A DNA stretch of 64,000 bases, from positions 20,302,115 through 20,366,114 of the forward strand of contig CM119263.1 of NCBI GenBank assembly GCA_051294375.1. The letters are read 5' to 3'. The position numbers and the translations under genes were made by a program. Under the pieces are notes generated by a model. It was given only the letters and a program-made list of their open reading frames with translations. It was not told where the DNA came from and ran no database searches. This DNA is from Paraspadella gotoi. Taxonomy: Eukaryota; Animalia; Chaetognatha. Shown here in pieces: positions 19,287-49,132 of this stretch. Within the stretch, counting starts at the first letter, position 1, and each line of letters begins with the position of its first letter.

Positions 19287-22200
19287 TTAAGTTTGTCGAC
19301 GTCGGGATCGAATATCCGGAAAGAGCATTTGGGCAAAGGCCGATCGAAAGTTTTTGTTGAATACCGTGTAGAGGATTGGGTTGAGCGCGGAGTTGGCGTA
19401 ACCTGGGAGAATGGCGCGAAAAGATGTTTTATATTATATTATTTCATATTATTACCTGCTATTTATTATGAATTTAAAATATCGTAAAAAATCTCAACTG
19501 AAAGCTTAGTGTTTATTTTATCATTGCCCCAAATATTATTAATTTATTTTATAAAATGTATTCACAGTGAGCCAGAAGACATTTGGTGTCAGTATCCGCG
19601 CAAATCTATCAAAAATGGACTTGACGTTGATTTTGAAATAGAAATTCCAAAATAACTGCTCATCTCGAAATTAACATTTTGAGACAATAAATTATAAAAA
19701 TAATTATTATAATAATTTTCTGTCACTGCTGCACATATTAAATTATTGAGACAGGGCAAAATCAACTTATCATGTAGTCAGCTATTACTATACTAATGAT
19801 TATTTTTATATAACAATGCTTGGGCTAATAAAAATAGATAATATATATATAATATAATATAATAAATATATAAATATATAAATATAATAATATAATAAAA
19901 ATAGATAATATATATATATATATATATACTGGGAGTGAATAAACAAGTCTGTGAGAGAGACTTGATTAAAAGCTTGCAGAAACCTGTTATGTTATTATCT
20001 TGCAAGTGTGATGGAGGCCTTAAACCACCAAAGCCTGTCCAAAGTCAGGGACAAGATAGCTTATTTATTAAATGGATGGATAATTTTTATATTGGTTGTA
20101 CCAATTTCATAAAGATGGGTCATTATAATTATATTTATATTATTATATTATATTTATATTATATTTATAATTTTATTATGGTAAATAAGACAAGTACTGA
20201 AGCCAATTGCTATGAACTTAAGTGTTATAAAATGCCTTGGGTGAATGTTAATAGTCCTCAAACTCCTCATGATTGTAACCTAGGCTCAAAAGATGATATA
20301 CTTCATATTGTAATGCATCTGGATCGAATCCTACACATCTACAGTATTTTAGTTATAAGTAAAAATATTATTTGCAGTCATTAGACTTTTCACCCTTATC
20401 CTGTATGGCAGTCAGTTTTTTATAAGCTTATTGTATTGCGCTTTAAGGAAGACTGCATATAGGTCCGATAACCAAAGTTTCAAATATTTTTAATCAATCC
20501 TAGTTAAGAAAAAGGGTCATTCAATTCAACTTCAAAATAGGCCAAAATGGAGTACAAATTCAGAAAGCTGAGCTCCTGGCGATTCCGAAAATGTATTCAC
20601 TTTAAACATTTGATGCATTCTACCCCATTTTATATCGGTTTTAATTATAATATAAAATAAAAGAAACCTATCTGAAGAGTTGCAGGTCAAACGAAAAGGC
20701 TAATCCATCTGATATTTTTTATGAATTTTTTATTACTGAATTAGAAAAATGTAATAGAGAGACATTTTTAAATTTCAACTTGTATCCTTGAAAATGAAAC
20801 GTTTTTAAACTTTAACCCTGAATTCTTTCTAACTGGAACGCGTTTATCAAAATGTCTCTCTATTACATTTTTACAAATGTTTTTAAGATTGCTAATCAAA
20901 TTTTTAATTCAATATTATTGCAGTCGTTTAGGCTGCAACTCTTCAAATTCAGTGTAGATTGATTGTAGCTCGAATTTCTTTACCATCTATTTAACTGAAG
21001 ATTTTGTTCATGACTGGAAAACCAACAGAGTAACGAGATTAATTGTTTAATTCTCCCCTTCTAAACTAACCCATACCCTGTTTTAACTTCTTACCTAGAA
21101 TTTTTTAACAACCAGATTGAAAGACAAATCTTTAAAAAATGTGCTTACCCATTTAACTTAACAATTTTTTTATTTACTCATTTAAAAAAAATGATTAAAA
21201 ACAGATTGTTTACATATAAATAAAAACTTTTTTTTTGTGATTACTGATGATAATAATGTATTTCTCGATATATTAGCTCTAATACATCAATGATTACGTA
21301 TTGTTATGCTGAATGACCTTTCCTTGTAAACGAATCTTTGTAAGGACATTTTATACAAAGATGAACGCACTTTTCCTCCTTTCTGGATATAAAGTGGCGT
21401 GTTTTTTTTTTTTTTGCACTGTAATTTAATTTTCACTTTAGGTGTTGTACAGAATATAATATAATAAAAAAATTAATTAGACCTAAATTTTTAATTTTCA
21501 TGATGACCGAAACTTCGGGCATGATGCACAATATACAGTGGGTAAGGCCACCGACTTACCCAACCAAAAGAAGATGGCTTCCACGAAAGGCGGGGGTTTC
21601 GGGCATAAAGTTACGCAGAGGCCGTTGGTGACGGTGTAGCAGACGAAAAACGGCGTCCAGCAAATTAGAAACGACGCCATGATGACTTCCAGCATCTGCA
21701 TCGCTTTTGCTGAATATTGTAGGAGAGAAGGTGGTCGTTATAAATGGGAAAGGAAAAGGAAAGGAATATAAGGTTAATAGAAATTAATATCACTGATGAG
21801 AATTTCTGATAAATCGCGAATAATTTTTAGCCAAATGTGGATGATAGATGATAGATGCGTTTTTAGTCTTGCGGCCTTTCGAGAAGAGAATGTTGCGTGA
21901 CTTCTACGAATACAATCAGGATTATGAAGAAATAATTTCTTTCTTTTTTTCGTCTCAAATTTGCTCCATAAATTCAATCGCACCACGAATACGTTTTTCT
22001 CTTTTTTATCGGCAAAATGAAAATTAAAACGAATCGTTGAAAAAATCGTGATAATCGACGAAATTGAAAAAAGAATAGAAAGATACGAATGACATCCGTA
22101 ATAATTGATAAAAGCGAATGTCATTTAATTTTTATAAAGCTTGAATTATTAACATAATATTGTCGAATATACCCGACTGACCCAAACTGACACAAACTGA

Positions 22201-22795
22201 ACTAAACAGACCCAAACTGAACGGTCTCCATCTTATCTCACCTTCGTGTTTTCCCGTCTGCGTTTGACTCCGAAAGGCCGCCCGCTTTCCCTCCGCTGAA
22301 TTTTGACTGTGAAAAAAAAGTTTTTTTAAATATCTTTTATAATTTATATTAATCAAATTGTATGAACCAATGATTTAATATTGGTTCTCGTAATAGTAAT
22401 TTTTTTTTCATCTTGGTCGCCAGCAATGAGAGGAGAGGGAGTCGTCTCGCCCCTCTGACAATGTGATGAGCCCACACACGTAGGGCGACCTGTGGGTCAG
22501 GGAAATATTTTCGTCATTTGCCCTGCTTTTCGAAACTTCGGATCCAGTGGTTTAACCAGCCCGTCAATCTTTTGCACGCAACGTTTTAACTACGAGCAGT
22601 GAATTTGGAGATGAAGGTTTGGCCCGATGCATTATCCACCGGATACCTATATTACGTCACGACAGCTTCACTCTCGTGCCATGGACAGTCTCCCGGTCGA
22701 CGAGACCCCGAGGGAACCGAATCGGAATTTAATGGCAGCACTTAAAAAGACAACAACCGAGATCGAGATCATTAAAGAGTAAATTGGGAATACAA

Positions 22796-22826
<31 letters not shown>

Positions 22827-24805
22827 AGAAGAAGAAGAAGAAGAAGAAGAAGAAGAAGAAGAAGAAGAAGAAGAAGAAGAAGAAGAAGAAGAAGAAGCTT
22901 TTGCTCGCCTCCGCTTTTACCCGTCATCTTCTAATGGCACTTAAGCAAACGGAACAAGCGCACCCTCCCATTTTTCTTTCTTTTTTTCTCCCTTTCTTGT
23001 TTCTTTTATTTATGGTTCTTTCATTTTTTCCCTACATGTATTCGTTCCCTGGCGTTAAAAGTCTATTGAACGTGTCATCCCCGAATGAAACTCAATCCTC
23101 GCGGGGGGAAGGGTAACACCCGGTCACACTATTGGGGGTTTCGAGACGAGGGCACGATCCACTTTAACTTTTCAGACTGATTAATTCGTTATGACGCAGT
23201 TTCTTCCTTTCCCAATGTCCAGCGTTGAGGGTCCACTGCAATTGAATCTGCTTTTTACCACTCAGTTCTGTTAATCCTTCCATGACCAATCTCTCCAACT
23301 TTCACCATCCAGAGTCCCTAAGCCCTTCCCTTCCATTCATGCTCCGTTCATTTGACCACATTAAGCCCACGACTAGCGAGCAGGCCCGGCGCCGAAATCA
23401 ATACAAATGGCGGGATTCACTTCGGATCGAATCCGTTAATCTCACTTTTTTCCCATTCGATTCGCGGCTTTGCTTTCTTTTCCATTTACGACTCTGCTTT
23501 GTTTTTTCTAATAGGCCATGACTTCCTTTTCAAACACTCCTATCGGCCATGCTTGGCTGTCGAAACATCCTGATCTTACTTAACGAAAACCCAAGATTTA
23601 TACAGCTAATAAGACAGCTACAGTAGTAGTTTTTCAAGCAATACGGACTGCCTATGACAATGATTTAGCAAATTTTTATCTCATTATTTGGCATGTATGA
23701 TCGGCAATTGAACAAGCACTAATTAAACTTTCATTAGGTATGAACTTTGTTTCTCCATGCAATCTACTGCCAATTTCAAAATAGATATCTATACCAGTTA
23801 ATTTTACCGAATTTTTTGTTGGAATTTTCTTCGCCAAATTTAAACCCAATCTCCGAATCAGTCCGATCGTCTCTTTAAGTTTTTGAGATTATCGTTCTTA
23901 TCCGTCTAAGGAAAATTTCCGGCGAGAGAAGCCAACAAACCAACAAAACTACAATATGTAAAGTGATATTTCGTTTGACATGTATTTTCCGGTATTGAAA
24001 GTAAATTAATAAGTAAATAAATCCGAACCTTGGACTCGTACTCGTACGTAATCTCGGTACAATCGATAACTTTCAAATTTTCTTAAAAACAAATTTTACT
24101 GTTTGTTCCAGAATTACCCTAGTAATTATTGACAATTGTAAAAAGTAAACTCACGAAATCTTTCATGGGTATAATTGACCGAACGGTTCACGTCGCTCTC
24201 GACAGTTAATGCCACAGGCGGTTCATGACCCATCCACTCTCGCCGCTAATGTCAGGTTCGTTGACCTTTTCCACGACTCTGATTGCGAACGGACGCCTGA
24301 GGGCGCGAGTCGTCACCGAGATAAGGGAAACCGGAAATCGGAAGAGAATGACGCCGAGTTGGAAACGACACGTGGGAGACTTTAATTCGGACGACGCCGG
24401 GGAAATGTGACGATAGAAAATGGTGATCTGCCACTTTGAGTTTGTGGCGAATGGCATTTGAGATGTGGTAATGGTAACGTGGTAGAATTACGGGCAGAAT
24501 GGAGAATGGAAGAACGGGCAGAATGGCGCGCTTATTTTTTAAGTCATTTCAATCTTCGACTTTTTACCAAGATATTGTATCGACATTTTATCGAGACTTT
24601 ATCAAGATTTTCCATCATTCTACTTCTAACCCAATTTCTTTTTATTAATTAGCTAAAAAAAGTAAGGTAGAACTTGAGTGAACCCTTTCATTTAGTTTTC
24701 CTTTTCATTTTATCACGAATCAAAAAGAAACGAGAGGCAAGTTCGATGAGCGAAGGATTAGAGATTAAGGAATAACACTGACGTGAAAATGGCGAAAATA
24801 GAAAA

Positions 24806-24854
<49 letters not shown>

Positions 24855-27685
24855 GACGTTCCATTACCAGTCGGTTGTCAAAATGATTCTGCGCTATGAG
24901 GTATGGAGTCGACAAATCTCGGTCAGGCGCTGGCATCCGCGTCTCAATTTTGAGATTCGTGACTGATGACGTCGTCAGCCGCCAACGCCGCCGCCACCAC
25001 CGACATCGCCGGGAAATGCCATTGACTCCGCTCGCTCTCTCTCCGCTCTCTTTCACCACAATCACCACCACCGCCGCCAGGATATGCCATCATCACATTT
25101 GCTATTTTTTTACCCAAAAGACTTGACGCCCTTTTTCTTGCCCACTCCACTCCCCCTACGCTCCTTCCATTCAACTCTCCCTCCCAACAGAGCGTTTTTC
25201 TTTCTTTTCTCCGAAGTCGACAAAATGGCCGTCGAAAATCGAGGTGACGACTTTGAATCGTCAAAAAGATGGCGTTGACGTTGCATGCGGCAACAAACGC
25301 AGTCATTTTGGTTAAGCCGAGGTCAGATCTGTATCGGAATAATAAAATAAACATGAATAATATTACTATTTGAATGTCAAAAATTCTCAATTGACCAATA
25401 AAAAAGCGACTGCCGAGTTTTTCCTCCATTTCGAAAAAGAAAATCCGTAGATGAGTGAAAGAAGTGCTAATGTTGACAGCGAATTCCGCTCCGTCCTAGC
25501 TAGAAAAGAAAAAAAAGAAAAGAAAAGAAAAGAAAAGAAAAGAAAAGAAAAGAAAAGAAAAGGAAAGGAAAGGAAAGGAAAGGAAAGGAAAGGAAAGGAA
25601 AGGAAAGGAAAGGAAAAGAAAAGAAAAGAAAAGAAAAGAAAAGAAAAGAAAAGAAAAGAAAAGAAAAGAAAGAAAGGAAAGGAAAGGAAAGGAACGAAAA
25701 GGAAAAGAAAAGAATTCTCTTCAATGTTTGTCATTACTGACAAATAAGTTATCTTTGCGAACCGAAAAAAAGAAAAAGAAAAAAATAAGACGAAAGGCAT
25801 TGATAATATTTCTCCTTCCAACTAAACGACAACAGTATTTTCACAGGGAAGAACTATTACTACAAAATCTATTTATAATCATCTCGATCTTCCACTTTTC
25901 TGATCGCATCTCGTCTTCTCCGTCGTTTCTTTCGACTGAGTTCATCGTCGCCATCGTCGTCGTCGTCTTCGCCGTAACGATACTGTCTCGCGACTTGATT
26001 GCCAAGGAATCCAAAATGGCGAACATAGGAATATTGATAAGTCAGAGATACAGCATTACTAGTCTTGCTCATTCGACTAGTTCCTTCCGTTTCTTTAAAA
26101 TGTTTTTCTCTCTCTCATCCCCCTCGAGTTGTTTCTCCTCTTCCGGTCGGCGATACTCAGACGCAGACGGCGTCGCCGCTTTTGACTTCGAAAAACATTC
26201 GCCACATTAAGTCGCCATAAAAACCGGCGCCGTTTCCGCCGATATAACGACAGCTGCGTCAGTTCCGACGGGAGCGGTGAAAGGGGCGTCGATATAGTGG
26301 GCTTGGGTGTCGTAAGAAGGTTTCCACATTGTCTTGGGTGTCGTACGTTGTAGAGTCTATTCCCGAGCGCCGAGGGTCGCGCGATCTTGGGTTCGAGCAT
26401 CAGCTGCAGATTGAAAGCCAACCGGCGACGATATTGCGGGCGCTGATTTCGCGACAATTACGGAAAGTCAACGGAAAGCAATGGCCTGCGGTGGATATCG
26501 ACGGCCTGATTTGAAACGCGACAGAAAACGAAATATTTGAATCAATTTGGGCAGCCATTCACTCTCGGCAACGACGCAACGCTCTCCGTTAAATTATCGC
26601 GAAATCACAAATCATTACTTAATGACTCCCCCAACATTCAAACTTCCTCTCCTGTTTTCGCCACGCCCTGACCCTCTCCCCCGCCCGCACCTTACCCTCT
26701 CTTCCCCGGCCTCGTCTTCGCTAATGGCGAGCGAAGCGAACTCACCATCGCGAAAGTCTTAAGCCTGCCTGACGACCACTTGCCTTTCGACCGAAAGAAG
26801 CGGGGATCGGGGAAAGGGGGGTCAGGGAAGGAAATAAAAAGGTTGGGGACTAATGAGGATTATTATAGGTATGAGTATGGAATAGGGATGGGATGCCTCG
26901 GGATGAGTGGGAACATAAAGACAGTGGGTGGGATAGGATGAGGTCACAGGAAGACATGAAGAGAAGGTAAAATATTTGAGATGATAAAGATGAATGGCCA
27001 TCTTTTCCGAAAGCGCCGCATTTTAACTTAAATTTATAATTAAGTTGTTTGTTTTTTTAGGTTTAAAAATTAAGTTAGACTTAGGAGTTAAGGATAGGAA
27101 TTGGGGTTAAAGACTAGAGATTGGAATTAAAGATTAAGGTAAAAATGAAATTAAGGGATTAGACACAGAAATGATATTCTTTCGGATAAAGAAAGAGAGG
27201 AAACCGTCCCGCGAGTTTTGATGCGAGGCGGAAGAGGATGGGAGGATCGATTCAGACGAAGACATTCAAGAAGAATAAATCCAATCGATTTTATTCGATC
27301 AACGGAATGGGGCGCGGCCACCCGCGGCCTCCCGCTTTATTAGATTCAGGAAATCTCCCGCGAAGAGAGAGAGAGAGAGAGAGAATAGTTTTAACCGCGA
27401 GACTTGCTAAAAATTCACTTAGCTGAAAAATTTAATTATGGATTCGTTGAAGGAAACCGTTTGTTGTCTGGCAACTCATTGGGAAGCAAATCAGGGATTG
27501 GCTGAATTACGAGTCGATCGGTTGCTTTAAGTTGGAGCTGAATGGCTGGAGACATTAGCGAGGGACTCGGTCAACCAAACTCGTATGAAACGACTTTGAC
27601 CGAGGATTAGTTTTTATCAAAATGGAAAGACACGCTAAAAAAATATGGATCGGGGGAGAGGAAAAGAGAGAGAAAGATAAAGAAT

Positions 27686-27783
<98 letters not shown>

Positions 27784-29954
27784 GATGATGTTGATGATAT
27801 TGACAGGAAACGAAGCAGATATTTATATACGTATATTTCAAAGATTGATTATACGTTTCTTCTATAATATTGTAGCCCAACTCGATTTCCGTTTTTCGTC
27901 TCATATTTCTTAATTCATTTTCTCATTCAGTCATTCCCTTTGAACTTCATTCCTCACCAACGAAAACGAGGCTCCACTGACGCAGTTCTCGCCGTCCACC
28001 ACGTGACCGAAATGACCATCACTCTTGACTTTGTGACTCCACAAGTCCAGTGAAAAACTCACTTTGTCTCCGTGACGCGTTGCACTGTCTCCGCTTCATT
28101 CTTCTCTCCCTTTAACTTATTCTCTCTCGGTTCTCAGTGACTTTTCTGACGATTACTCAAGATTGATTTCTTTCCTTTGCTATAACTAACCTTAATAGCT
28201 TTTTCGTGGCCTTTTTTCGTTTTATTTTTTATTTACCCGTTTTTATTCATATTCTTCCCAGATCAATAGCGTATTTCTCTATCTTTCTTTACTCCATTTT
28301 AACGAAGCAAACGATGAAGTTGTAAATCAAAACATTACACATTTCTTGATTAAAACGATTAAGTACAAAATGTAAAAAAAGGTATTTTAACGAAAAATGA
28401 CAAAAAGAAATACCCATAAAAACTACCATCACAAACCATCGGATGTCACTTAGTACTAATACCATTAAGAACCCGGACGCAAAAAGACTACTAGGACGAC
28501 GATACTCGGTTGTACCGACTTCATATACATACACCAAATTAGATTAAAATTAAATTATAATTTTCTCTCTTCTTCATTGCGTTAAAAGCCCCTCAGTCTC
28601 GGCATCTACGCGACAAAATTTTATTATCGGAAATTAGGAGGGAAAAAAGCCCCGATTTTCCATCTTTTCCATCTCTCGATTTTTCCCAGCGGGAACCCGT
28701 CACTCGTCACTCGGCTCAAGTGGGTCACGGGAAAACAGGAGACGTGACTCTGGATGAGGAATTTTTGTTTTCTTAGTCTTTTGGTAACGGCATATTACGA
28801 ATGAGTTTCATTAAGAAGATTAGAAAGTAGTTAAGATTATCAGTGATTACGAAGAAGTGGGTCTAAACCACTAACTTTGCTCTTTGGGATGTCCAAAATG
28901 CTTTTAGTTTCGAGAGCTCTGTCTAAATTAAAACAACAACAACGACGACGACGACGATGACCACTATGACCTCCACCACGACCTCGACAACATCCACTGA
29001 CCTTTCCGTCTGAAACGACCACCGAAAGACGTTCTTCTTAGCACCGGGCGCGCTCCCGTTCGGCACCACGTCGGCGCTCCTGGTCTGCCGACTGCCGACG
29101 CGCTCTTCCTCGGCGTCGTCGTCGCCGACGCCGCTGTTGTCGATGGCGTCGACGGAGAAGGTTAATTGGCGCGCGCGTCGATCGCGCCACTTCCGGCGTC
29201 GCTCCATCCCGACTTCGCTGATCTGCGTCGACGAGACTTCGAGATCCACGTGGCGCCGATCCAGATCCGACGCCGGGAGATCGTGCAGCGCGGATTCGGC
29301 GTCGTCGAGCGGTGCGGGCGGCGCCCGGGGCGAAGGGGACGTAGCCCGAGTCGGCGCCGGTCGTCCGAAGGTCGATCCTCGAATTGAGAAGAAGAGAAAT
29401 CGTCGCGGACGAAGCTGAAGGGGGGGGGGTAGGAGAGGGGGGGGGTTGAGATGGGAGAGAGGAAGGAAGTTGGTTTGTGGAAGAAGAATTAAAAGTTGTT
29501 TGTTAATTTTGAAGTCAGATTATTCGACAAACTGTGATTACAGGAAAAAATCCGCCCGTTATTTTTTTTCTTAAATACCTTTTTACCGTTTTATCATACC
29601 TCACGAAACAATAACCAATGCAATATTTCACAAAAATTGTTGACTTGTTTTTTCAATTTCAGAGAAACCAAATATTCGTCGGAAAAAAGATTTGAAAAAA
29701 GAATTCTGACAATTTGGCTGTAAATATTGTAAAAATCATGCTATTGAGGTATTGAAAAATTGTTAAAACATTGTATTTTAATATTTTTTAACTGTAATTT
29801 GACCTTGAGAATACTTAATGAGGAGCCAATATGGCGTTGAGCTTCAACGACGACGAGAGAAATGGAGCGACTGGTTTTCGGTCGGCGATCGGCCATTGAT
29901 TGGTTTCTGCCTCTTTTTCTCGCGCAAGGGTCAAGTTTGGAATTCCCATGAGAG

Positions 29955-29992
<38 letters not shown>

Positions 29993-32900
29993 TCTGGCGA
30001 CCGCAATCAATCCTCGCTCAGTTTCGACATTTTTGGCAAAACGTTTCTGCTGTCTCTTTTTTCCTCTCTTTTTTCTACATACATATCTCTACCTCCTTCT
30101 CTCTCTTTTTCACTTCCTCGTACTCTCGTTAGTAAACGCTAATGCGCGATTTTTATTTTTTTTTATTTTTTTAGTTCAAAATGTTAACTTAGTACATCAC
30201 GAAATCACCTCACGCCATCACTCACGTCATCGCCGTGTCCTGGTTTTCGCCTCAAGTTCACACTTCTGGGGCTCACAACTCACAAATCATTGCGAAGCTC
30301 GTAAACTTTTAAATAGTAGGATAAACATCATAGATCATATTCATAGCAAATCATTAATAAATCCAGTAACAAAGGATCAAAGAGTTAGTTGCTCCATAAT
30401 TCAAACAACGGCGATTTTTAGACTTTCACAATCGGCAACAACTTAAACAACTTAAAAATCCCCGGGGGTGGGAGCGGCAGCTCAGACGGACGCCGAAGAA
30501 GGAAGTGACTTAATAAGACTCTAGAGAAACGTTTGGAGGCGACACCTATGTTGCCGCCTTCGCCTCGGCACAAAGGAACGAGCTCACTCTTCGGCGATTC
30601 AGGATTTCGCGAAGAAAAGAATTCGTAATGGGTGAAAGGAGAAGAAAGAAATCTGGGTTGAAATTGTCCGCGGGTTTCTTTCCCGCCAAATTCTTTTTCC
30701 AGAAGACGATGATGATGACGACGACAACGACAATTACGAAGACGACAAAGAAGAAGACGACGACGTTTGAACCGAGGAAAGACAACCACAATTTAAAGTA
30801 GCATCAGACGAGACAAATCTGTGAATGAAAAAACCCACTTATTTGTCCTCCACAGTTTCTAATCTCTGAGGTCTGAAAATACTTTTAAACGGTCACAGTT
30901 GTGCTCAGAAAGGGAATAAGCAAATGGTCAATAGGCAAGGAATTTAAGAACAGACTACAACAAAAAAAGCCGCTTAGTTTTTCGTCTCTTCGCCATTTCC
31001 GGAGCTGTGAGCAGACTTTGTCACCAGGTGGTCCTCGTCGTTGGAATCTTGGTTCGTATCGACGTCGTCGTTGTCGTCGTCGTCTCCGCCCCATGGGATC
31101 GTCATCTCGCCCCATTAGAGGCCGCCTCCGTCGACGCATTTTGTTTTCACAATTGGCTTCAATGTTTACTCTGCCGTTTTATCTCGTAAACTCGGGGAGA
31201 GCTAATTGATGTGAAGATTTGACGCCCGCGCAGCCGGAGCAAACGAAAGAAGCCATTTGGCGGATGTCATTTCGATCCAGGCTTTGTTAAAACGTATTTT
31301 TTTACGACATGAAATGAAGTGAAAATTGTTAATTTATAATTATTCTATTTTTTACCAAATTTAAACGTTTTGTATTTAACGTATCGGGTCAGGGCTTTTC
31401 TTCTTCATCTCGCCCTCACCTCCTCATTCCTCACCTGGATTCTTCGGGAATTTTGCTCAGCGGTTCGAGATCCACGTGGCAGATGCTCCTCTGTTTTCGC
31501 ATCTTCCAACCGACGCCTCCGTCTCCGCCTTCCGTCGCCGCCGTCGCCGTCTCCGTCGACGCACCATTCATTAGCGGCAGATTTCCGCCGCCGCCGCCGC
31601 CGCCGCGTTTCATGCGCCGCAGCAGCAGATCCTCGTTCAACGAAAACGATCTCATGTCGTTGGAGAGGAATTTCTTGCGTCGATCGCCGAAGCGTTTGTC
31701 CGCGGGGCCGACGGCCCGCTTGGCCGCCGGCGAAGGCTTTTCGGTGGAGACGGAGTTGACGACGTCGTTGGGAAGTCGGGTCGGAGTGGCGACGTCGGCG
31801 TGACGGATGGGAGTGGAAGGATCGAGCAAAGGCGAAGTGTCCGTGAGATTCCCCGCCTTGTCCGGTGAATCGAAAGGCGGTCGTTTTGAGGAGAAAGTGA
31901 TCGATGGGGACACGCCCCCTTTTCCTCCTATTCCATTGATCTTCTCAATCTCTTCCCTTCCTCCCCTATCACCGCCTCCGAACATCAGAGAAAAATTGCG
32001 ACGTAAAAATTTGGGTTTGAGTATCGAGTCTTTGACGTCGTCGAGACTCGTCTCGCTCGAGCAGTGGGAGAGGCGAGTACGGGAAGAACGAGGACGCCTG
32101 GGGATTGGAAAAACGCGACGTCATTGGGTGTAAGTCCTTCGAAAAGAAATATTAAAGGGGCAGAACGTTTTGGTGGTCTCGACGTTTTTGCCCGAACTAA
32201 AAAAACTTAAGCAAGAAAATTTTAGCGGAGTCAAAATGAAACACTTTTTCCCGATGTTCTTTTAAATAACTGAATCGTTAACGATCTTGAAATCTACTTT
32301 TTAATTTCATGGCGGAAAAAATTTTACTCTTTCAATTGATACATAATTCAAGATATCATTTTTCAAATTTAAAAAGTTTAATTTCATAATGGAGTGCAGC
32401 TGCAAAAAAAAATTTATAAATTTTCCATATATTTCGACATAAGTTTCTATGAATCGGTACAACCAATATAAAAATTATCCATTCATTTAATAAATAAGCT
32501 ATCTTGCCCCTGACTTTGGACAGGCTTTGGTGGTTTAAGGCCTCCATCACTCTTACAAGATAATGACATAGCAGGTCCCTGCAAGGTTTCAATCAAGACT
32601 CTCTCACAGTCTTGTTTATTCACTCCCAGAGTACCTGGCTTCCCTATCAATGAAGTGGTATAATATTCAAAGAATGTTTTCAATTGTATGAAAGACCACT
32701 CCCTTAAGTATTAGATCGGGGAATACTTATTGTACTCCGCACTCGCATCAAAATACAAGGAGCTGAATTTTATGAAATCGCGGTACAAACCAATATAAAA
32801 ATTATCCATTCATTTAATAAATAAGCTATCTTGCCCCTGACTTTGACAGGCTTTGGTGGTTTAAGGCCTCCATCACTCTTACAAGATAATGACATAGCAG

Positions 32901-35349
32901 GTCTCTGCAAGGTTTCAATCAAGACTCTCTCACAGTCTCGTTTATTCACTCCCAGAGTACCTGGCTTCCCTATCAATGAAGTGGTATAATATTCAAAGAA
33001 TGTTTTCAATTGTATGAAAAGACCACTCCCTTAAGTATTAGATCGGGAATACTTATTTACTCCGCACTCGCATCAAAAACAAGGAGCTGAATTTTATGAA
33101 ATCGGTACAACCAATATAAAATATTCCATTCATTTAATAAATAAGCTATCTTGCCCCTGACTTTGGACAGGCTTTGGTGGTTTAAGGCCTCCATCACTCT
33201 TACAAGATAATGACATAGCAGGTCCCTGCAAGGTTTTCAATCAAGACTCTCTCCACAGTCTCGTTTATTCACTCCCAGAGTACCTGGCTTCCCTATCAAT
33301 GAAGTGGGTATAATATTCAAAGAATGTTTCAATTGTATGAAAAGACCACTCCCTTAAGTATTAGATCGGGGAATACTTATTGTACTCCGCACTCGCATCA
33401 AAATACAAGGAGCTGAATTTTATGAAATCGCGTACAACCAATATAAAAATTATCCATTCATTTAATAAAATAAGCTATCTTGCCCCTGACTTTGGACAGG
33501 CTTTGGTGGTTTAAGGCCTCCATCACTCTTACAAGATAATGACATAGCAGGTCCCTGCAAGGTTTCAATCAAGACTCTCTCACAGTCTATGTCTATGTCA
33601 TCTTCAGTGGAAGAAAAAGAATTAACAAACAAAACTTTTACAAAGTAAGAAATAGAGAAATAAAGAGAGAGAGACACAATAACAATGAAAAGGCTAAAGA
33701 CTAAATGACCTTAAAGTGGTCAGAAGAACCCAAAAAGGGTTGGCCCCCCACCCCTTCATAAGTCATTAAAGACACAGTTCCACGCGTCAGTTTTCACGTA
33801 GAAACTTATGTCGAAATATATGGAAAATTTATAAATTTTTTTTTTGCACTGCACTCCATTATGAAATTAAACTTTTTAATCATTATACTAACAGTGCATG
33901 AGATGACGTTAAAAGAATTTTTCAAATTTTTTTTCATTAAATACTTTTTCATTAGTTAGTAATCATGTGAAACAACGACAACAAAACATTCATTTTTAAA
34001 CAGCATTTACCCCAAGTTTGTCTGTACTTCGGAAATTGGTTTTCCTCCAAGGTTTGAAAATTTTTTTGTCTCTCTCTCTCTCTCCGTCACAGTCTTTTTC
34101 TTTTCTCTTCTTTTCTCATTTCTTTTTATGACGTATTTGTTCTTTACACCTGCTCATTTTTACCCTTTTTTTCCTTCTTGCCAAGGCGTCGTTAATTCTT
34201 TTTCCCATTTTTTTAACTACTTTATTTATTTCTTTTTAATTATGCACATTAAGTTTTCTCTCTTTTTTCCCCTTTTTCTCTTTCTTTCTCCATCTCTATC
34301 TTTCTTTCCTTCAAGTTCCATGTCACCTCTTGCTCTTTTTTTTCTTTTCTTATTAATAGGCCATAAATTTGTCGGCGACAGAATCGTTTTTTCTTCTTAA
34401 ATCACAATCGATTCATTAAAAACTTAGTGTTTGATCTACCGGCCATTACCTCGTAATTTTTGTTTTTTTTCTTTCATACGCTAAAATTGTTTTTTCTTAT
34501 TTTTCTTCTCTGCTGGTTTTTCCAACTTTTTTCCTTCATGTTATGTTTTCTACGTCTCAATGTCAACTCATATTTCTACTATTTCTTTTTATCGCTCTCC
34601 CCTCAATTATGCTTTCTCTGATACTCTACTTATATGAAATTGGTACAGCCAATATAAAAATTATCCATTCATTTAATAAATAAGCTATCATGCCCCTGAC
34701 TTTGGACAGGCTTTGGTGGTTTAAGGCCTCCATAACTCTTACAAGATAATGACATAGCAGGTCCCTGCAAGCTTTCAATCAAGACTCTCTCACAGTCTCG
34801 TTTATTCACTCCCAGAGTACCTGGCTTCCCTATCAATGAAGTGGTATAATATTCAAAGAATGTTTCAATTGTATGAAATGTTTGAAATGGAACATTCCTT
34901 TTCAAAGCCCTTAAATCGTCCAATCTCCCCCACCTTATTTCTTTGTATTTTTCTCTCTCTACTTCTTTTTCTCATCCCTACTTGTTCGTCTTCTTGAGCA
35001 AATCCTCCCTGAACGCCGCCATCTTTGACGACGCCGGCTCCCGCCTCTCTTTGGCCTCCGACGCCGGGGCGTCGCGCAGAATCGGCGAAACGGCGCCGTT
35101 TTCCTCTTCCTCTTCCTTCTTCCCATCGACGTCGGGCGAGTCGTCTACGTCGGCGTCGAAGGTTTTGGCACGCCCGACGTTCTTGAGGACGCCGCGACGA
35201 CAAGGGCGCGGCTGAGGGGCGGCGGTGGCGGAGGTGGGGTTGTCGAGGCTGTCAACCGGCGGCGGAGAGGGAGTGTCGCCGCCGAAGGGGAAGGCCAGAG
35301 ATTGTCTAGACGATCGGAGGGATGACAGCGATGTTTGAAGGTTTTTGAC

Positions 35350-35430
<81 letters not shown>

Positions 35431-38400
35431 TTATCCCCATCGTCAGTTACCTTGCTCAAAACTGAAACCCCATGAGATTTTTGAATGTCAGTCCGTCCTT
35501 CAAGTTCAGTCACGAAGAAATTGATATCTTTAAATCTTTTTTTTTTTCATCTCTCTCTGTCTTTCTCTGTCTCTTTCTGTCTCTCTTTGTCTCTCTTTAT
35601 AAACTGCCATAAATGTTATTCTTTTCTCTTTTCTCTTTTTTCTCACCTCAAAAAAATGGTTCTGCCAATAATACCAAAATATTACTATATTTAATGATTC
35701 AATAAATTAGGTTATAATGGGTTAATTTTCGGCTACAGTAAATTTATTGGCGTAGTATTAAAGCCACTCCATTATGTATTTTATGTAAGTCTAAAAAATA
35801 ATTTAAATACGTAATATATCATGTAGTATATCTCCCATTGACTGTTCGTAGAGAAGGAAACCTTTGCCGCCATCTTAAAAAAAAATATCGTTCGCAACGC
35901 TCGCGCTCGCATTTACAATTCCCATTCATATTTCCCCAACGGTTTTGACGTTTGATAATTTGCGTGGGAAATAAAAAAAAACAAAAAAAAACAGAAACAT
36001 AAAGTATAAATAAAGGCTCTAAAAAGTTTTTATGATATAGATTTTAAATCAAGGCTGCAGGATCAACCTTTTTTCTTTTTATCGTCACGAGCTCAACGCT
36101 CGACGTGCTGCGCAATTGACAAGATAAGCCGCAACAAAACAATCGAACTTCTGCCATCGAGCACAAAGCCAAAGGACGATTTCCTGCAACGGCCCCGATA
36201 AGCCGGGACGAACGCGATAAAAATCGCCGTCTCGTTTTAACGATGACCAGATGTCGCTCGAGCTCCGCCATTTTGACGCGAGAGAGCGAGGATCAATTGG
36301 ATAAAATCACCGCCTCGTTTTGTTTTTTTTTTATTTTTGTTTTTTGTTTATTTTTTTTCGTTCGCCAGATGGCGTCTTTCGCGATTTCTGTCGCTGGATC
36401 AAGAAGCAAAGCCAGGATCGATTGGATGGAATCCCCCTAGTGCTGGTATAAAGTGACAGATCGATATTTTTTTTCGGTGTTAGGTTAGGATTGATAGAGC
36501 GAGATTGTCACGAAATGACGCAGTGTGAAAAATGTCGAGGTCGAATGAATTCCATTTGTTGCAATACATTAAGCGCTTCCCTGGGCATCTAGAATACATT
36601 GCGCAAGATTAGGAGACTCAAAAAACGTGGCTGTCAAAATCGAAAAGGGGCAGAAATCTCTATTTTTCCTGAATTGCCTTGTTTATTTTTTTGTGTGTGT
36701 GTGGGTGTGTGACTGTTATTTACATCATTTCTCGTTTTCTTTCCTAATCCAAATTGTCTTCAAAGTCACTAACCTACCATTTTCTTTCATCAAACTTTTC
36801 ACCATCATTCGTTTAACTTTTTAACCTCGACTTTTTCCCTTTCCTTTTCTTTTTCTTCTCCTCCCTTCCTCCACTTCAACTTAGTTTTCTCCATCCCTTC
36901 ATCTTCCATTTCGGGATTCGCTCGATGTTTGACCTCAGGCAAACGACGGAGGAACGAATTCCGGATTGCCGACCCTCCCGGCAGCCGGTGATGGAATTTC
37001 GGACCAAAACAACCGGCGGCTGTGTTTCGTCGTCTGCCGGAATTGGCGGCTACCAGCCGACGGCAACCGGATTTCGAAGAGCAGCAATCAACTTTTTACT
37101 CACGTCTCTTATGTACATTAGTATAATGTATACATTGTACACGAAAGATACTTGAATAGAGACGAAGCAAAATATACTTCGAACGGCGAACAAACTTAAT
37201 TAATAAATTTAATTTCACTGTTAGTAAAAAAAAAACATTGCTCAATATTTTCTGGAGATAGTATCTTTGCAAGATTCAATTAAATCTGACTGTGCAATAG
37301 GGTGGAGTGATGAAAATATTGAGCGATAGAAAAATTTTTTTTGCTGCCTTTATATATGTAATAAAAAATAATTAAGCCCATTTTTAAATCAATTTTGCAT
37401 AACAGTATCATTAAATATTTTTTTTATAATAATATCTTTATAAATTCATAAAATTTTAAAATATTTTTTTTAATTTTAATAATAGTTTCGGATTAGCCGG
37501 AGAAAGTTTTGTAATATATGTTTTATGATATTTTTAAGTAAAAGTATCAAAAAATAACTAAAACGTTTCATCATATTTATAATAGTTTCTACTACAGAGT
37601 AAAAGTAAAGAATTTTTAACTTTTTTTCCATTTTAGACGCTGAAGACATTACAATTTTTAGTAACACATTTTATATTTTTGATCTAACTTTTTATGAAGA
37701 ATCAGAATCTTTAAAAAAATTATATTATATTTCGATAAATATATTGTAATTAATAAATGCGATTTTATTCGAATACAACGAGGTTGATTCAGTACAATCA
37801 TCATCAACAAACAAACAAACATAGACGAAGTCTGAGCAAACAAAAAACATTATAAAATAGAGAGAAAAAACAGTTATTTAAATAAAATTAATTAATTAAA
37901 ATTTAAACAATTAAAAATTGTTCTTATGTTGTAAAAAACGGAACAAGTTTCTGAAGAACAGTATTTTTCATTGCATAGATCTTTGAGATAAAGGTTTTCT
38001 AACGATTATTAAAAATTGTAGATAGGTCGTGGTATCCAAACTTACTCTTAAGTTCTCTCACACTTTCGCCAAACAATACAAGCAAAATAGTTTTTGTACT
38101 CCTTAATCATACTATCACATATCTAAATATTCTTGTTTAATGTTTAATGTCTATTCACTTAAATACAATTTATGGTCCACTCTACTGTAGACGTGAAATG
38201 CCACCGCTCAACCTATAAATCTCAGGAGATAAAAACAACACGTTAATCAGATTGTCATTCGTCATCCTTTTTTAAGTCTTTTGTTCTTTTTTATTCAAAA
38301 TGACTCATTTCGAAGGCATGTTTGTAATTGTTTCATGATCTTTGTTTTGATCCTCAATTTTCATAACGGAGGCAGGGGCGCATGGACATTAATGTTAATG

Positions 38401-41292
38401 TTTTCCGAGAACAAGTCACTCTCCTGAAAAAAAAAATACGGAAGAAAAAAACAAAAGCGCTTTGCTTCGGAAGAGTAAGTCAGTCGTTATGAGAAACGCG
38501 ATTCCTTTCCTTCTTCCTTTCATCGTGTCTTTTTCTTTCCTTTCACGTGAGTTTCTTTTTTCGTCGGAATTGGTTGAACTGTGAACACGTCACGTGAATT
38601 AAAACGAAAAAAAACAAACTAATAAATAAATTATTTCTTATTCAACTTCCATACGGACCAACGTTTGATTTTAAGACCATCTTTTCCTTATATTATCGTA
38701 ATTGAACAAAGCGAAAATTCAAATTTCACTGCTTTCATTCTTTGTACTCCTCTTCTTAATGTTTCCTCTTCCACCCTTTTTGCAAACTCGCTCGACTGTT
38801 AACATTTTCTTCTCCTTCCCCACTCCTTGTGTGTCTCTCATCTATTTTAATAATGATGTTCCTTTGTTTTTCTTCTCGTTTTTGTTCTCGTCGGCGTCGC
38901 CATCATCTCCATACTAGTCTTCTTTCATTTTTCTTCGCCCTTGTCCGCTAGGCGTCTTCATTGCTCCTCGTTCAGTTTTGTTTTGTTTTTTTTTTCTTCG
39001 GGGGAGGTGCGGTTTTTTTTTCCGGAGCCGTGCGAAATGATGGAAACGACCACGTCCTGCCTCTGGCAGTTATATTTTACTTGCTTCGGCAGTCATTGTT
39101 AAAGTCCAAAAGAGTTATAGTAAGGAAAAAAGCGATCATAAGCTTTGACCAAGTCGATGAAATTGTGAATAATGAAAGAAGGTTCTAAGACTATGTTCGT
39201 AGTATTAACCCTTAAAATAACAATCAAACTCCTAACCCGCTAATCTTATCGAGCTAGGGTCTTTGCTCCTACTCTACCTAGCCTCACCTCCAATCCTCCT
39301 ATACATTGCTTCAACTCCACCGCTCCATCTCTCTCGTGCTTCACCCCCACTTCTCTTCTACCTTGTCTCTCTCCAACGCCCCCCCCACACCCTCACCCAA
39401 GAAGGCCTATAATTCCTCCATCTCGCGGAGGCGGTTCCGTCGAAGGAGTCGTCGACGGAGGCGAACTTGAGGGTGTTGGCGCGGATGCTGCGGACGAACT
39501 TGGCTTTGGCCTTCAACTTGATGTAGACTTTGGCGTAGACGACGAGGAGTAGTACGAGAGGGACGTAGAAGGATCCCGAGGCCGAGTAGATCACGTAGCC
39601 TGAGGGAAAGGAATGATTGAAAAAGAAATACGGGAAACTGGAAAATATTTGTTTAAAATGTCAATTGAAATCTGTCATCGAAGGAAATGACTAAAATATT
39701 CGGACTGTGCCGTGAGGAGTAGAAGGTGAAGCGCGAACTTCAGGGGCATCTAGTCACTTTAATACTGTGTGTAATAGTGTAATAGTGTAATAGTGAAGAT
39801 ATCTGTTGAGAAAAGGGAGCAGAGAGGGTTGGGGAAATTTGGGTTATCAAGGGAAAAACAATGTGACGTTTTGAGACAGAAGAAAATCAAATTATTTTTA
39901 ATCAATCAGAGATCAAAGAATCAGAACAAACCATTTAATCAATCGGTAAATCGATCGGTCAATCTGATGAATTGAGTACACGCTAAATTACAAAACGAAA
40001 GGGATAAATATACGTTCTACCGTTAACATTATTTCCGTTCTTAACCGGATCCGTTGATGTCATATCGGGTCGTTTGTCAAACTCTAGATTCTGGAATGTT
40101 GTCATAACGCGAGTCATTTATTATTCGCCCGTCGTTTCGATCAAGCCTCAATTTAGGGATCGAGGACGACGACGACGACGACAACGACAACAACAACGAT
40201 GACGAGGCGGGAAAAATACCGCGAAAATCGTTTCAGTGTAAACAAGTTGATGGCGGGAGGAAGCGAGCGTAAAACCGTTGAAACGTGCAAGGAATGATTG
40301 TTTCCTAGCTTTCCAGCTGGAGATACACGATTTAAGAACTGCAGCATTTATTTATTCATTTTTTTTATTTATTCGTATACTCGAGAATAGCATTGAGTTT
40401 TCTTAAAAAAAGCCATTACTTTTAATTTAAAAAAGGTAAAGTATTCCTCGCATCTCTTGGTTGCACAGCTGCAATATTCTCACCCGGTGACAGGTTTTAT
40501 TTTTTCCCCCTTTTTTTTTCTTTTTTAAGAATTTTTTTTCTTTCGGTTTTGTTTTGGATGAATGTACTGCGCAATAGACTTGGTTTTTTCTCTTTACGTT
40601 TTTTCGCGATTTTTTTTTTTATGACGAACTTCTCAATCGTACAGGACCAAGGGGACCTTCTTTATTCTGGATATCGGTTCAAAAATGTTTTATTAGAATA
40701 AAAGGAATGGAATTGTAGGTAATAACAATTCCGACCTGGAGTCTGAAAGAGAACGCACTGCGCAACGTCGGACGAGTTGGAGACGACGTATGAGGGACGA
40801 TCTCGCCAACCGAACAAAGGCGGAACCGTGATCACGATGGACAGGGTCCAAGATCTGAAGCCGAAGAGACAACGGTAAAGGTGTTAATGTTAATGACACA
40901 AATTTAATTACCAGTGACATTTCTGTTCAAATAATTCACATAGAAGATTACCCGCAAATATAACCCAACGCAAGTGTTCCGGATTTTTTGTGCAACAGGT
41001 ATTTCGCTGGATAGTTGGTCGCCATGAAACGATCTGTAACAAATACGTAATTTATATTTTAATTAGGTTTTTTTGACGCCATCTTTTTTTCCCTACATCG
41101 ATCCTCTCTCCTCACCCAGCGCGATGGCCACGATGGCCCAGATGGACGCCGTGCAACAAAGGACGTCAATGGAAAGCCAAAGGTTACAGATGAATTCGCC
41201 AAAGGGCCATCTGCTGAGGACCTCGTTGGCCATCGAGAAAGGGAGGACCGTCAGACTGAGGAGTAGGTCACACATCGCCAAGTTGCCTGAGA

Positions 41293-41373
<81 letters not shown>

Positions 41374-46889: not shown

Positions 46890-47916
46890 AAAGCGAAACG
46901 CGATCGTTTTCGTGCGTCGGAGGTGAAGGAGCGATGGGCGGAGACCGAGAAGAATCTCGGTTACGCGAGAAAGAGGCGATTGTTACGTTTATGTTGACGT
47001 CGTTGTCGTGGTCTCATTGTTGTGGTCTTGTTGTTGTGGTCTTATTGTTGTGGTCCAGTTTACGAGTAGACGTCGACTTCGTATCTACGTAATGATTCTC
47101 TCTCTTCTTCTCGAGATTTGTTTATTTCCTTTGTTTTGCCAGAGAAAATGATGAAAACAAAAAAATGTCTTCGACTCGGATCCCATCCGAGATAATGAGG
47201 TTCCCGCGCTTTTCCCATGGAGGGCGTCTTCCGTTCGACAACTACATTCCTTTTCCTTTATCTTTATTCCACCTCCCGGTCCCCCCTTTTGGGGTCGCCA
47301 TCTTTGTTCGACGGCAACATCATATTTGTTATTTATGTTCCGTTTTTCCGCTCGGCCATCTCACTTTAAATGGCGACCGGTGAAAAGATCTTCCCTCCTC
47401 CACCGACTTCTCTCGCTGTATACCTGTTTACTAGAGTGATGTGAAAATGATTAAATTTTAGAAAATTAAAATTTAGCATATAAAACATGAACATAAAAAC
47501 CAATAAAAATACTTTGGTAAATTTATTTTTAAATTTTATACATTAGTGAGTTCAGTGAGCTATACATATAGGCTAAAATTTCAAATTGCAAATTTTAAAA
47601 TTTTAAGAACGGATTTGGTTTCTTTGCAAAAAGTTGATATAAGAAAGTACAATTCTTTTTTAAAAATTCTTTCATAAAGTTAGTCAAAAATGTAAAAAAA
47701 ATATATTTAAGATACCGATTTCCAATTTCCAGCTTTGTGTTAAGCCTTTCTTTTTGTTGTTTGTTTTAAATTTAAGTGAAACAAAATTCTCTTCACCTTT
47801 GTCCTCAACTTCACCTGTCCTCACATCTAACCACTTTCCTTTCCTCAATTCTTTGTTGGAAACTTTCTCCTTTCTCTCTCTTTCTCTCTCTCTCTCTTTC
47901 TCTCTCTCTCTTTCTC

Positions 47917-48840: not shown

Positions 48841-49132
48841 TAATACTTAAGGTAGTGGTCTTTTCATACAATTGAAACATTCTTTGAAATATTATACCAA
48901 GTTATTGTTAGGGAAGCCAGGTACTCTGGGAGTGTATAAACGAGAGAGTCTTGATTGAAAGCTTGCAGGGACCTGCTATGTCATTATATCTTGTAAGAGT
49001 GATGGAGTCCTTAAACCACCAAAGCCTGTCCAAAGTCAGGGGCAAGATAGATCGATTTCTAAATTGATCAAAAATAATTTAAAATGTGCAAGATATAGCT
49101 TATTCATTAAATGAATGAATAATTTTTATATT
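48841..49132 (+). mobile_element. Dispersed decayed copy of the ~325-bp repeat; twister motif at 48987-49049
   Basis: Matches the unit. The palindrome is altered to AGUCCU. A ~38-bp insertion lies between direct repeats of gcaagata (49042-49049 and 49088-49095). Confidence 0.9.

What the first reader, a model, noticed from the sequence alone, without database searches (positions are those of the whole stretch)
32448..33588. Tandem ~325-bp repeats each carrying a twister-like ribozyme: candidate twister-based retrozyme
Seen: on the minus strand each unit contains UAUCUUGU-AAGAGU-GA-UGG-AGGCCU-UAA-ACC-AC-CAAAG-CCUG-U-CCA-AA-GU-CAGG-G-GCAAGAUA. Established: the twister core has a U/AA cleavage strand, an opposing GA-NNN strand carrying the general-base G, a 4-bp P4 whose loop is U-NNN-AA-NN, and two pseudoknots. 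Against the rice twister as I recall it (UAA-CACU-GC-CAAUG-CCGG-UCCCAAGC-CCGG...GAGGG), the differences are compensatory in three pairings: P4 CCGG/CCGG to CCUG/CAGG, 3-bp knot CCC/GGG to CCA/UGG, 2-bp knot GC/GC to AC/GU. The ends close as a P5 stem. Known animal non-LTR retrozymes are similar-sized tandem repeats that use hammerheads. Inference: multimeric transcripts self-cleave into ~325-nt monomers that may circularise. Weak points: P2 is only 2-3 bp (ACC vs GAGU) and P1 is minimal.
Basis: partly seen in the sequence, partly recalled or inferred. Interest (0 to 1): 0.93.

Follow-up and report, generated by a model that had tools for sequence, protein, structure and literature searches.

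The report
Jumping repeat with paired twister ribozyme
A 326-base non-coding repeat, present in this animal genome both as a short tandem array and as scattered cut-short copies, carries a twister-type RNA fold whose first helix is replaced by a self-complementary six-base stretch, so it is predicted to cut itself only when two copies pair; it is likely a twister-based counterpart of the hammerhead "retrozymes", but cutting and RNA circles are untested.

Summary
32448-33588 is a 3.5-copy, 326-bp array. Each unit has, on the minus strand, a type-P5 twister-like core (Rfam Twister-P5 25.8 bits, below the gathering score of 37.6). Both catalytic residues, P4, P5 and both pseudoknots fit in 3 of 4 cores. 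Three more copies lie in the window. Two share the array's 3' end, about 90 nt after the predicted cut; all four loci have different 5' ends and no tail, as Penelope-like insertions do. Five of 24 published Naiad 3' ends read by eye carry the same layout with compensatory changes and palindromic arms. Best reading: a non-autonomous repeat likely moved by a Penelope-like element, with a predicted dimer-dependent twister; a retrozyme-like element without a hammerhead. Cleavage, circles and the partner element are untested. I found no twister retrozyme in print. This scan had already noted palindrome-armed twisters in Naiad tails of other genomes.

The parts
32448..33588 (-). Array A: 3.5 head-to-tail units of about 326 bp; 5' end at 33588 (mid-unit), 3' end at 32448
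33476..33538 (-). Twister-like core A1 (P5 5' strand, P2, GA, 3-bp knot strand, palindrome, U/AA, P2, 2-bp knot strand, P4-L4, P5 3' strand); predicted cut 33513/33512
33514..33519 (-). Palindrome AGGCCU in place of the P1 hairpin (same position in every core); predicted to form P1 between two cores
33147..33209 (-). Core A2, intact; predicted cut 33184/33183
32827..32888 (-). Core A3, one C missing in L4 (3-bp knot broken, possibly a sequencing error); predicted cut 32863/32862
32500..32562 (-). Core A4, intact; predicted cut 32537/32536; the element ends 89 nt after the cut
32896..32966 (-). Long hairpin in the unit body, just 5' of the core (shown for one unit); one compensatory A-U to U-A change in copy C
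34633..34878 (-). Copy B, 246 bp, 5'-truncated, same 3' end; general-base G changed to U and one P5 mismatch (predicted impaired)
19929..20113 (+). Copy C, 185 bp, 5'-truncated, same 3' end, core intact, 5' junction at a (TA)n tract
48841..49132 (+). Copy D, older; palindrome broken by one change, about 45-bp insertion after P5, 3' end about 20 nt short
32369..32449 (.). 81-bp stretch abutting the array's 3' end, inverted copy of 33799-33879; unexplained
33799..33879 (.). Second arm of the 81-bp inverted duplication, 210 bp from the array's 5' end
32098..34981 (-). Inferred 2884-nt GT-AG intron of an aminergic GPCR gene that holds array A and copy B in sense orientation

Best explanation
This is a non-coding, high-copy 326-bp repeat, likely moved by the reverse transcriptase of a Penelope-like element (possibly of the Naiad clade), whose type-P5 twister fold is predicted to cut only when two units pair through the palindrome that replaces P1. 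Steps: (1) shown: tandem and dispersed copies, a fixed 3' end about 90 nt after the predicted cut, variable 5' ends, no tail. (2) inferred: arrays are transcribed by read-through or from a master locus; array A lies in sense in an inferred GPCR intron. (3) predicted: neighbouring cores swap strands, AGGCCU pairs with AGGCCU as a shared 6-bp P1, and each composite core cuts at U/AA, releasing about 326-nt units with 5'-OH and cyclic-phosphate ends. (4) inferred by analogy with hammerhead retrozymes: a host RtcB-type ligase closes units into circles, which a lone core would not re-cut. (5) inferred: the borrowed enzyme starts at a fixed internal site and copies through the cut site for 0.6 to 3.5 rounds into AT-rich targets.
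For: Core fits all twister pairings except cis-P1; a natural P5 twister above gathering score has the same AC/GU knot and 3-nt P2 strand (L002 865-923). AGGCCU self-duplex -9.1 kcal/mol, the strongest of 4 perfect 6-nt palindromes in a unit; swapped dimer -30.5 against -10.2 to -17.4 for two twister-folded monomers. In a two-core transcript trans-P1 has probability 0.9, P4 0.85 and 0.51, crossed P5 0.79 and 0.35; in one core the cis A-U pair has 0.0001, P4 0.29, P5 0.26 (pseudoknots not modelled). Same design in axolotl and PLE hammerheads: one pair plus a palindromic loop, efficient as dimers (PMC7229834; PMC6765202). 3' ends of A, B, C lie 89, 90 and 90-92 nt after the cut; 5' parts are 76, 156, 93, 172 nt; the best-supported loose end among 1192 contigs of run X9 is this 3' end (38 contigs). 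The anole PLE starts reverse transcription 85-92 nt after its hammerhead cut (PMC11167929; one example). All four units of A share two substitutions absent from B, C, D, one of them a minority allele in X9, so the array comes from one template. 5 of 24 Naiad consensus 3' ends viewed carry the same layout with compensatory changes in P2, P4 and both knots and palindromic P1 arms (read by eye). Copy C sits at (TA)n, the Naiad target bias.
Against: No cleavage, transcript or circle data. Rfam score is 11.8 bits below gathering and E 0.32 window-wide. The minimum-energy fold of one core is not the twister fold (-15.0 against -8.7 without knots) and two such folds (-30.0) equal the swapped dimer. 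The circle is not clearly more stable than shuffles (63-67% paired, z -0.4 to -2.3). The window copies show no compensatory change inside the core, and the core is not clearly spared: 6 substitutions in 189 core positions against 21 in 451 outside for B, C, D, with B losing the general base and D the palindrome. No RT was found in 150 reading frames of the window and no genome is held, so the partner is not shown. Only 1 of 4 loci sits at (TA)n. In vitro the anole PLE used uncleaved RNA as its main template, and only 1 of 9 Xenopus retrozyme dimers cleaved (bioRxiv 10.64898/2026.07.22.740005). P1 is reported dispensable or of little effect, so a monomer may cut too.
Confidence: 0.55

Rival explanations
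1. A SINE-like, non-autonomous Penelope-type repeat that is copied from uncleaved linear multimers, with arrays growing by unequal crossing-over; the twister is real but is a passenger inherited from the partner's tail, and no circles accumulate.
For: All four loci span the cut site, which an uncleaved template explains as well as a circle. Uncleaved RNA was the main substrate of the anole PLE. Li et al. propose local tandem amplification. Circle fold is unremarkable. Summed contig depth in X9 is about ten times lower just beyond the fixed 3' end than inside it (a weak measure).
Against: A loopless palindrome kept in 6 of 7 cores only makes sense if pairing between units matters. The body carries a hairpin with a compensatory change and two G-U to A-U changes.
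Confidence: 0.25
2. One reading: every unit holds a minimal twister that cuts well on its own, with AGGCCU as an unpaired or one-pair loop.
For: P1 imperfections did not lower cleavage among natural type-P1 twisters; cleavage without P1 is possible though inefficient (PMC8501958). Tertiary contacts are not in the folding model.
Against: Cis closing pair has probability 0.0001 and P4/P5 are mostly misfolded in a lone core. An exact palindrome at this place, and palindromic arms in five Naiad motifs, would be unexplained.
Confidence: 0.12
3. An ordinary satellite or dead repeat whose resemblance to a twister is chance or a decayed remnant that no longer cuts.
For: Below Rfam gathering, E 0.32 window-wide. 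No covariation inside the core among window copies; damaged cores in 3 of 7.
Against: Descriptor null is about 0.1 hit per 64-kb window and ignores the 8-bp P5. Order, spacing and pairings match natural P5 twisters and Naiad motifs that differ in sequence. Fixed 3' ends and 5' truncation point to retrotransposition, not satellite growth alone.
Confidence: 0.08

Closest known systems
Metazoan non-LTR retrozymes (Cervera and de la Pena 2020, PMC7229834; Li, Clavereau and Pollet, bioRxiv 10.64898/2026.07.22.740005)
   Same: Tandem units of 150-450 bp, under 50% GC, no ORF, one ribozyme per unit, monomers dispersed and multimers clustered, proposed Penelope-type mobilisation; axolotl HHR_Amex1 has one pair plus a palindromic tetraloop and cuts better as a dimer.
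   Different: No hammerhead core on either strand; the ribozyme is a type-P5 twister-like fold. No clear target-site duplication. Circles not shown.
Type-P5 twister ribozyme (Rfam RF02684, clan CL00120)
   Same: Order GA, 3-bp knot strand, P1, N/AA, P2, 2-bp knot strand, 4-bp P4 with 8-nt L4, open P5; whole-model match.
   Different: 25.8 bits against gathering 37.6; P1 hairpin replaced by a loopless 6-nt palindrome; P2 is 2 bp plus a mismatch; knots are UGG/CCA and AC/GU.
Naiad-clade Penelope-like elements (Craig et al. 2021, PMC8557442)
   Same: 5' truncation, partial tandems, (TA)n bias; five bivalve consensus 3' ends carry an unannotated P5 twister-like motif with the same junction layout, P4 and 2-bp knot identical to ours in two of them, and palindromic P1 arms.
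   Different: Ours has no ORF, one palindrome rather than two, no P3, a different 3-bp knot and a shorter stretch after the cut. No sequence link to a host Naiad could be tested.
Twister variants of Schistosoma Perere-3 (RTE clade; Liu et al. 2021, PMC8501958)
   Same: Twister with a reduced P1 in an animal retroelement.
   Different: There the ribozyme is at the 5' end of a coding element and the cut marks the 5' boundary; here it is permuted, internal, about 90 nt from the 3' end, and 5' ends do not fall at the cut.

Membership tests
Type-P5 twister (RF02684) | Score at or above Rfam gathering threshold | tested here: not met
   25.8 of 37.6 bits
Type-P5 twister (RF02684) | General-base G with following A, and N/AA cleavage strand, in P5 order | tested here: met
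   6 of 7 cores in the window; B has U for G
Type-P5 twister (RF02684) | 4-bp P4 with 8-nt L4 and both pseudoknots paired | tested here: met
   6 of 7 cores; A3 lacks one C
Type-P5 twister (RF02684) | Open-ended P5 helix | tested here: met
   8 bp in the array cores
Type-P5 twister (RF02684) | P2 helix of 3-4 bp | tested here: inconclusive
   2 bp plus a C-A mismatch, or 3 bp with a bulge; same in 3 of 5 Naiad motifs
Type-P5 twister (RF02684) | P1 closed as a hairpin within the molecule | tested here: not met
   No loop; cis pair probability 0.0001, trans P1 0.9
Type-P5 twister (RF02684) | Site-specific self-cleavage at U/A | not testable with these tools
   needs in vitro transcription
Metazoan non-LTR retrozymes | Tandem unit of 150-450 bp, GC under 50%, non-coding | tested here: met
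   326 bp, 38-39% GC, longest Met-started frame 45 aa
Metazoan non-LTR retrozymes | Type I hammerhead in each unit | tested here: not met
   No CUGANGA on either strand; no hammerhead family in Rfam at E up to 10
Metazoan non-LTR retrozymes | Target-site duplication longer than 4 bp, when present | tested here: inconclusive
   None clear at 4 loci; at B the same 7-8 nt at both ends also belong to the element
Metazoan non-LTR retrozymes | Highly self-paired circular monomer | tested here: inconclusive
   63-67% paired, z -0.4, -2.3, -1.1 for 3 monomers
Metazoan non-LTR retrozymes | Abundant linear and circular unit-length RNA | not testable with these tools
   only assembled contigs were available
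Non-autonomous Penelope-like (Naiad) element | Fixed internal 3' end, 5' truncation, partial tandem, no poly(A) or simple-repeat tail | tested here: met
   3 of 4 loci share the 3' end; 4 different 5' ends
Non-autonomous Penelope-like (Naiad) element | (TA)n target bias | tested here: inconclusive
   1 of 4 loci at (TA)n
Non-autonomous Penelope-like (Naiad) element | Inverted 5'-truncated copy of the element at the 5' end (frequent, not obligatory) | tested here: not met
   The inverted duplication at A is of flanking DNA, not of the element
Non-autonomous Penelope-like (Naiad) element | Shared 3' sequence with an autonomous partner in the same genome | not testable with these tools
   No genome held; no RT in 150 frames of the window
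RTE 5' twister variants (Perere-3 type) | Cut defines the 5' end, RT ORF downstream | tested here: not met
   5' ends lie 76-172 nt before the cut; no ORF

The most novel reading that the evidence does not exclude
The first retrozyme built on a twister: a genome-encoded 326-nt circular RNA, derived from or riding on a Naiad element, whose ribozyme is an obligate strand-swapped dimer that cuts multimeric transcripts and leaves the monomeric circle alone. It would show that Penelope-type mobile RNAs converged on the same palindrome-gated dimer switch with two unrelated ribozyme classes.
Probability: 0.35. Interest if true: 0.88.

Novelty: new variant of a known kind. Interest (0 to 1): 0.75.

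Why it matters
Animal retrozymes are defined by hammerheads, and Naiads were reported to lack a standard ribozyme. A twister in the same role would show that the element needs the cut, not the ribozyme class. It would give animal twisters a second concrete role besides RTE 5' ends. A natural dimer-only twister is a new architecture for the class and answers how a very fast ribozyme can sit in a stable circle or in a host intron. The whole system is 326 nt, so the open question of what ribozymes do for Penelope-like elements becomes directly testable with monomer, dimer and palindrome mutants.

Tried and rejected
No host genome is held. Pattern scans for relatives found none: viral contigs (0 matches), metagenome contigs (10 matches) and prokaryote genomes (12 matches); the 22 matches lacked the P4/P5 pairings by eye and had no similarity to the unit; L003 (seen) also looked like chance. 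So no covariation test on close relatives from other species was possible. Run search: no RNA holder listed; 16 of 18 rows hold part of the stretch; small shares in other organisms and metagenomes were not used as evidence. Runs X11, X14, X15 gave only 1-3 low-depth contigs each and may be carry-over. A per-position variant table from the DNA runs was not obtained, so differential conservation of the core across the family stays open. A hidden hammerhead, a Pol III B box and a coding frame were looked for and not found; the sigma-70 scan is irrelevant to an animal and gave nothing above shuffles. MAFFT misaligned the 5' half of our core against phage twisters, so pairs were parsed per sequence instead. 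Exact searches of the Naiad supplement for our L4 letters found no twister because those motifs use other knot letters. In 19 of 24 Naiad 3' ends shown I saw no twister by eye; 30 of 54 listed Naiad consensus ends were not viewed. Host phylum was not determined (one unnamed GPCR relative). A MITE reading of the 81-bp inverted repeat was set aside because the match stops exactly at the array's end; it was not excluded. Lunse et al. 2017 is not held.
Full report
1. Observation. The window is animal DNA: three minus-strand frames match the rhodopsin-type GPCR family and the best solved relatives are aminergic receptors. The phylum was not determined. Tandem Repeats Finder gives an array at 32448-33588, period 326, 3.5 copies, 96% matches. 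Differences between units are mostly single-base indels in homopolymers, which may be read errors. Rfam reports nothing at gathering level. At E-value level the Twister-P5 model matches 3 of 4 cores end to end at 25.8 bits (gathering 37.6), E 0.0063 on the array and E 0.32 on the whole window, where copies at 20007 and 48998 also match. A descriptor of the twister pairings hit 4 places in the window and 6 places in 60 shuffled windows; it was written after seeing the motif and does not use P5.

2. The fold. Parsed per sequence, the core reads: P5 (8 bp), a short purine joint, P2 strand, GA, UGG, AGGCCU, U/AA, ACC, AC, a 5-nt joint, P4 (4 bp) with an 8-nt loop that supplies CCA and GU to the two knots, then P5. 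Three natural P5 twisters fetched from viral contigs score 51-60 bits and have the same order; one has the same AC/GU knot after a 3-nt P2 strand. In a test of about 2600 natural type-P1 twisters, imperfections in P1 and P2 did not lower cleavage, while knot mismatches and changes of the catalytic G or A did (PMC11662667, sections read). Our core is perfect where that study found sensitivity and imperfect where it found tolerance. That study did not test P5 forms.

3. P1 is a palindrome. In the natural P5 twisters P1 is a hairpin between the 3-bp knot strand and U/AA. Here the same interval is AGGCCU, which has no loop. In a one-core transcript the closing A-U pair has probability 0.0001, and P4 and P5 form with only 0.29 and 0.26. 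In a two-core transcript the two palindromes pair with probability 0.9, P4 rises to 0.85 and 0.51, and P5 forms crosswise (0.79 and 0.35). The six-mer duplex is -9.1 kcal/mol; the other three perfect six-base palindromes of a unit give -3.2 or weaker. The strand-swapped dimer evaluates at -30.5 kcal/mol, against -10.2 to -17.4 for two twister-folded monomers, but equal to two misfolded minimum-energy monomers (-30.0). Pseudoknots are not in these models. The design parallels hammerheads of axolotl retrozymes (one pair capped by a palindromic tetraloop, efficient as dimers; PMC7229834, passages) and of Penelope-like elements (PMC6765202, passages). I noted this reading before the look-ups that returned similar scan notes.

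4. A mobile family. Three more copies lie in the window: B 34633-34878 (-), C 19929-20113 (+), D 48841-49132 (+). A, B and C end 89, 90 and 90-92 nt after the predicted cut; D ends about 20 nt earlier. The 5' parts before the cut are 76, 156, 93 and 172 nt. There is no tail. In public run X9 (kind uncertain), 1192 contigs lie on 511 bases of the array and the best-supported loose end listed is this same 3' end (38 contigs); two other runs show it too, with 1-2 low-depth contigs. A fixed 3' end with ragged 5' ends is the footprint of target-primed reverse transcription (established). The start lies inside the repeating unit, not at the cut, and every copy spans the cut, so the template was either a ligated circle or an uncleaved multimer. 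The anole Penelope-like element starts reverse transcription internally, at +111 to +118 of its ORF, with its hammerhead cut at +26, that is 85-92 nt downstream (PMC11167929, parts 1-2 of 4); this is one example and the match in distance may be chance. All four units of A share two substitutions absent from B, C and D, so the array descends from one template, by rolling copy, by copying a homogeneous multimer, or by later local expansion. Dispersed copies decay like dead retrocopies: B lost the general-base G, D the palindrome. For B, C, D there are 6 substitutions in 189 core positions and 21 in 451 outside, which does not show selection. A hairpin in the unit body has 1 of 19 pairs changed on both sides and three pairs changed on one side. 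The circular monomer is 63-67% paired with z of -0.4 to -2.3.

5. Independent covariation. Scan notes pointed to Naiad tails. I read published Naiad consensus sequences by eye (PMC8557442, supplementary File S5). Five of 24 3' ends viewed carry a P5 twister-like motif in sense after the ORF: Naiad_Bpla and Naiad_Mphi (record identity seen) and the records preceding Bpla, Mmer and Obim (by file order Mgal, Scon, Mmer). They share our layout: open P5, an AAG joint, a 3-nt P2 strand, GA, knot strand, palindromic arms, N/AA, 3-nt P2 strand, 2-bp knot. Against ours, the first P2 pair is U-A, C-G, G-C or G-U instead of A-U; the third P2 position is a mismatch in 3 of 5, as in ours; the 3-bp knot is GGU/ACC in two (both outer pairs swapped) and has a U-U in three; the 2-bp knot is AC/GU in three and CC/GG in two; P4 equals ours in two and differs by paired changes in three. 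They have two palindromes and a P3; ours has one palindrome and no P3. The paper's main text does not mention twister and says Naiads lack canonical hammerheads and prefer (TA)n. Copy C abuts a (TA)n tract. This supports the fold and suggests kinship; it does not show that a Naiad moves this repeat. No RT was found among 150 of 182 higher-complexity frames scanned.

6. Context. Array A and copy B lie in sense within an inferred 2884-nt GT-AG intron; joining the flanking exons gives one open frame of 341 codons, between GPCR exons for the fifth and sixth helices. Read-through would thus transcribe the array. The unit has no Pol III B box and several U runs. An 81-bp stretch abutting the array's 3' end is an inverted copy of DNA 210 bp beyond its 5' end; I cannot explain it, and an assembly error is possible.

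7. Mechanism. Shown: array, dispersed copies, fixed 3' end, core pairings, palindrome. Predicted: strand-swapped dimer cleavage at U/AA. Inferred by analogy: ligation by an RtcB-type enzyme to circles that a lone core would not re-cut, and copying by a Penelope-type RT from a fixed internal site. My odds: fold is of twister descent 0.9; it cuts 0.75; pairing gates or boosts cutting 0.6; Penelope-type mobilisation 0.75; Naiad in particular 0.5; circles accumulate 0.4. Against: the anole element used uncleaved RNA in vitro; 1 of 9 Xenopus retrozyme dimers cleaved; P1 may be dispensable.

8. Comparison and novelty. It works like a metazoan non-LTR retrozyme but fails the defining hammerhead test, and it fits the twister class but fails the Rfam threshold and the cis-P1 feature, so I file it as a variant and a member of neither. 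Ten full-text searches returned no paper describing a twister-based retrozyme, a dimeric natural twister or a twister in Naiads; I judged most hits from listings and abstract starts only. Twisters are known at RTE 5' ends (PMC8501958, part 1 of 9 and passages; PMC7761336, passages) and in viroid-like circles from metatranscriptomes (bioRxiv 10.1101/2022.07.19.500677, passages). The 2026 retrozyme preprint (parts 1-3 of 5; supplements closed) searched for hammerheads only and has no mention of twister. PMC5680766 and PMC10085705 were seen as passages. Roth et al. 2014 and Lunse et al. 2017 were not read; Roth's list of twisters may hold tandem eukaryotic examples. The scan itself has noted palindrome-armed P5 twisters in Naiad tails in at least 4 other genomes; among the notes shown, none was a stand-alone non-coding tandem array, and no look-alike of this unit was indexed.

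9. Verdict. Observation confirmed; interpretation partly supported and sharpened. New variant of a known kind; interest 0.75.

Noticed in passing
window 32369-32449 and 33799-33879: 81-bp inverted duplication of flanking DNA; one arm abuts the array's 3' end exactly, the other lies 210 bp beyond its 5' end. Insertion by-product, MITE or assembly error.
   Followed up: partly
window about 21500-41460, minus strand: Aminergic GPCR gene in several exons, with long low-complexity exons (31434-32097, 34982-35341, perhaps 28926-29519) that likely encode a very long third intracellular loop.
   Followed up: partly
window 49051-49094: About 45-bp insertion in copy D flanked by an 8-bp direct repeat that includes the 3' strand of P5.
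   Followed up: no
window 1-798 against 5019-5811: Near-identical duplications (96-99.6%) around N runs at the window start, likely assembly artefacts.
   Followed up: no
window 12319-12589 and 37295-37569; 47575-47711 and 48124-48261: Two other diverged repeats (75-78% identity), the second pair inverted and MITE-like.
   Followed up: no
window 2480-3258: Compound minisatellite with periods 70 and about 60.
   Followed up: no
L002 581-638 and 865-923: Two type-P5 twisters 284 bp apart in a viral contig, both above gathering score, the second with an AC/GU knot.
   Followed up: partly
PMC8557442 File S6, start of Chlamys-1_cAtm: The consensus begins with letters that resemble the part of a twister just after its cut, including a canonical L4 loop; possible twister in a Chlamys element.
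   Followed up: no
PMC8557442 File S5, several oyster, hemichordate and pearl-oyster Naiad 3' ends: A different conserved 3' motif without twister features recurs in these Naiads; not analysed.
   Followed up: no
window 10188-10508, plus strand: Weak MATH-domain match (E 0.0003, below cut-off).
   Followed up: no
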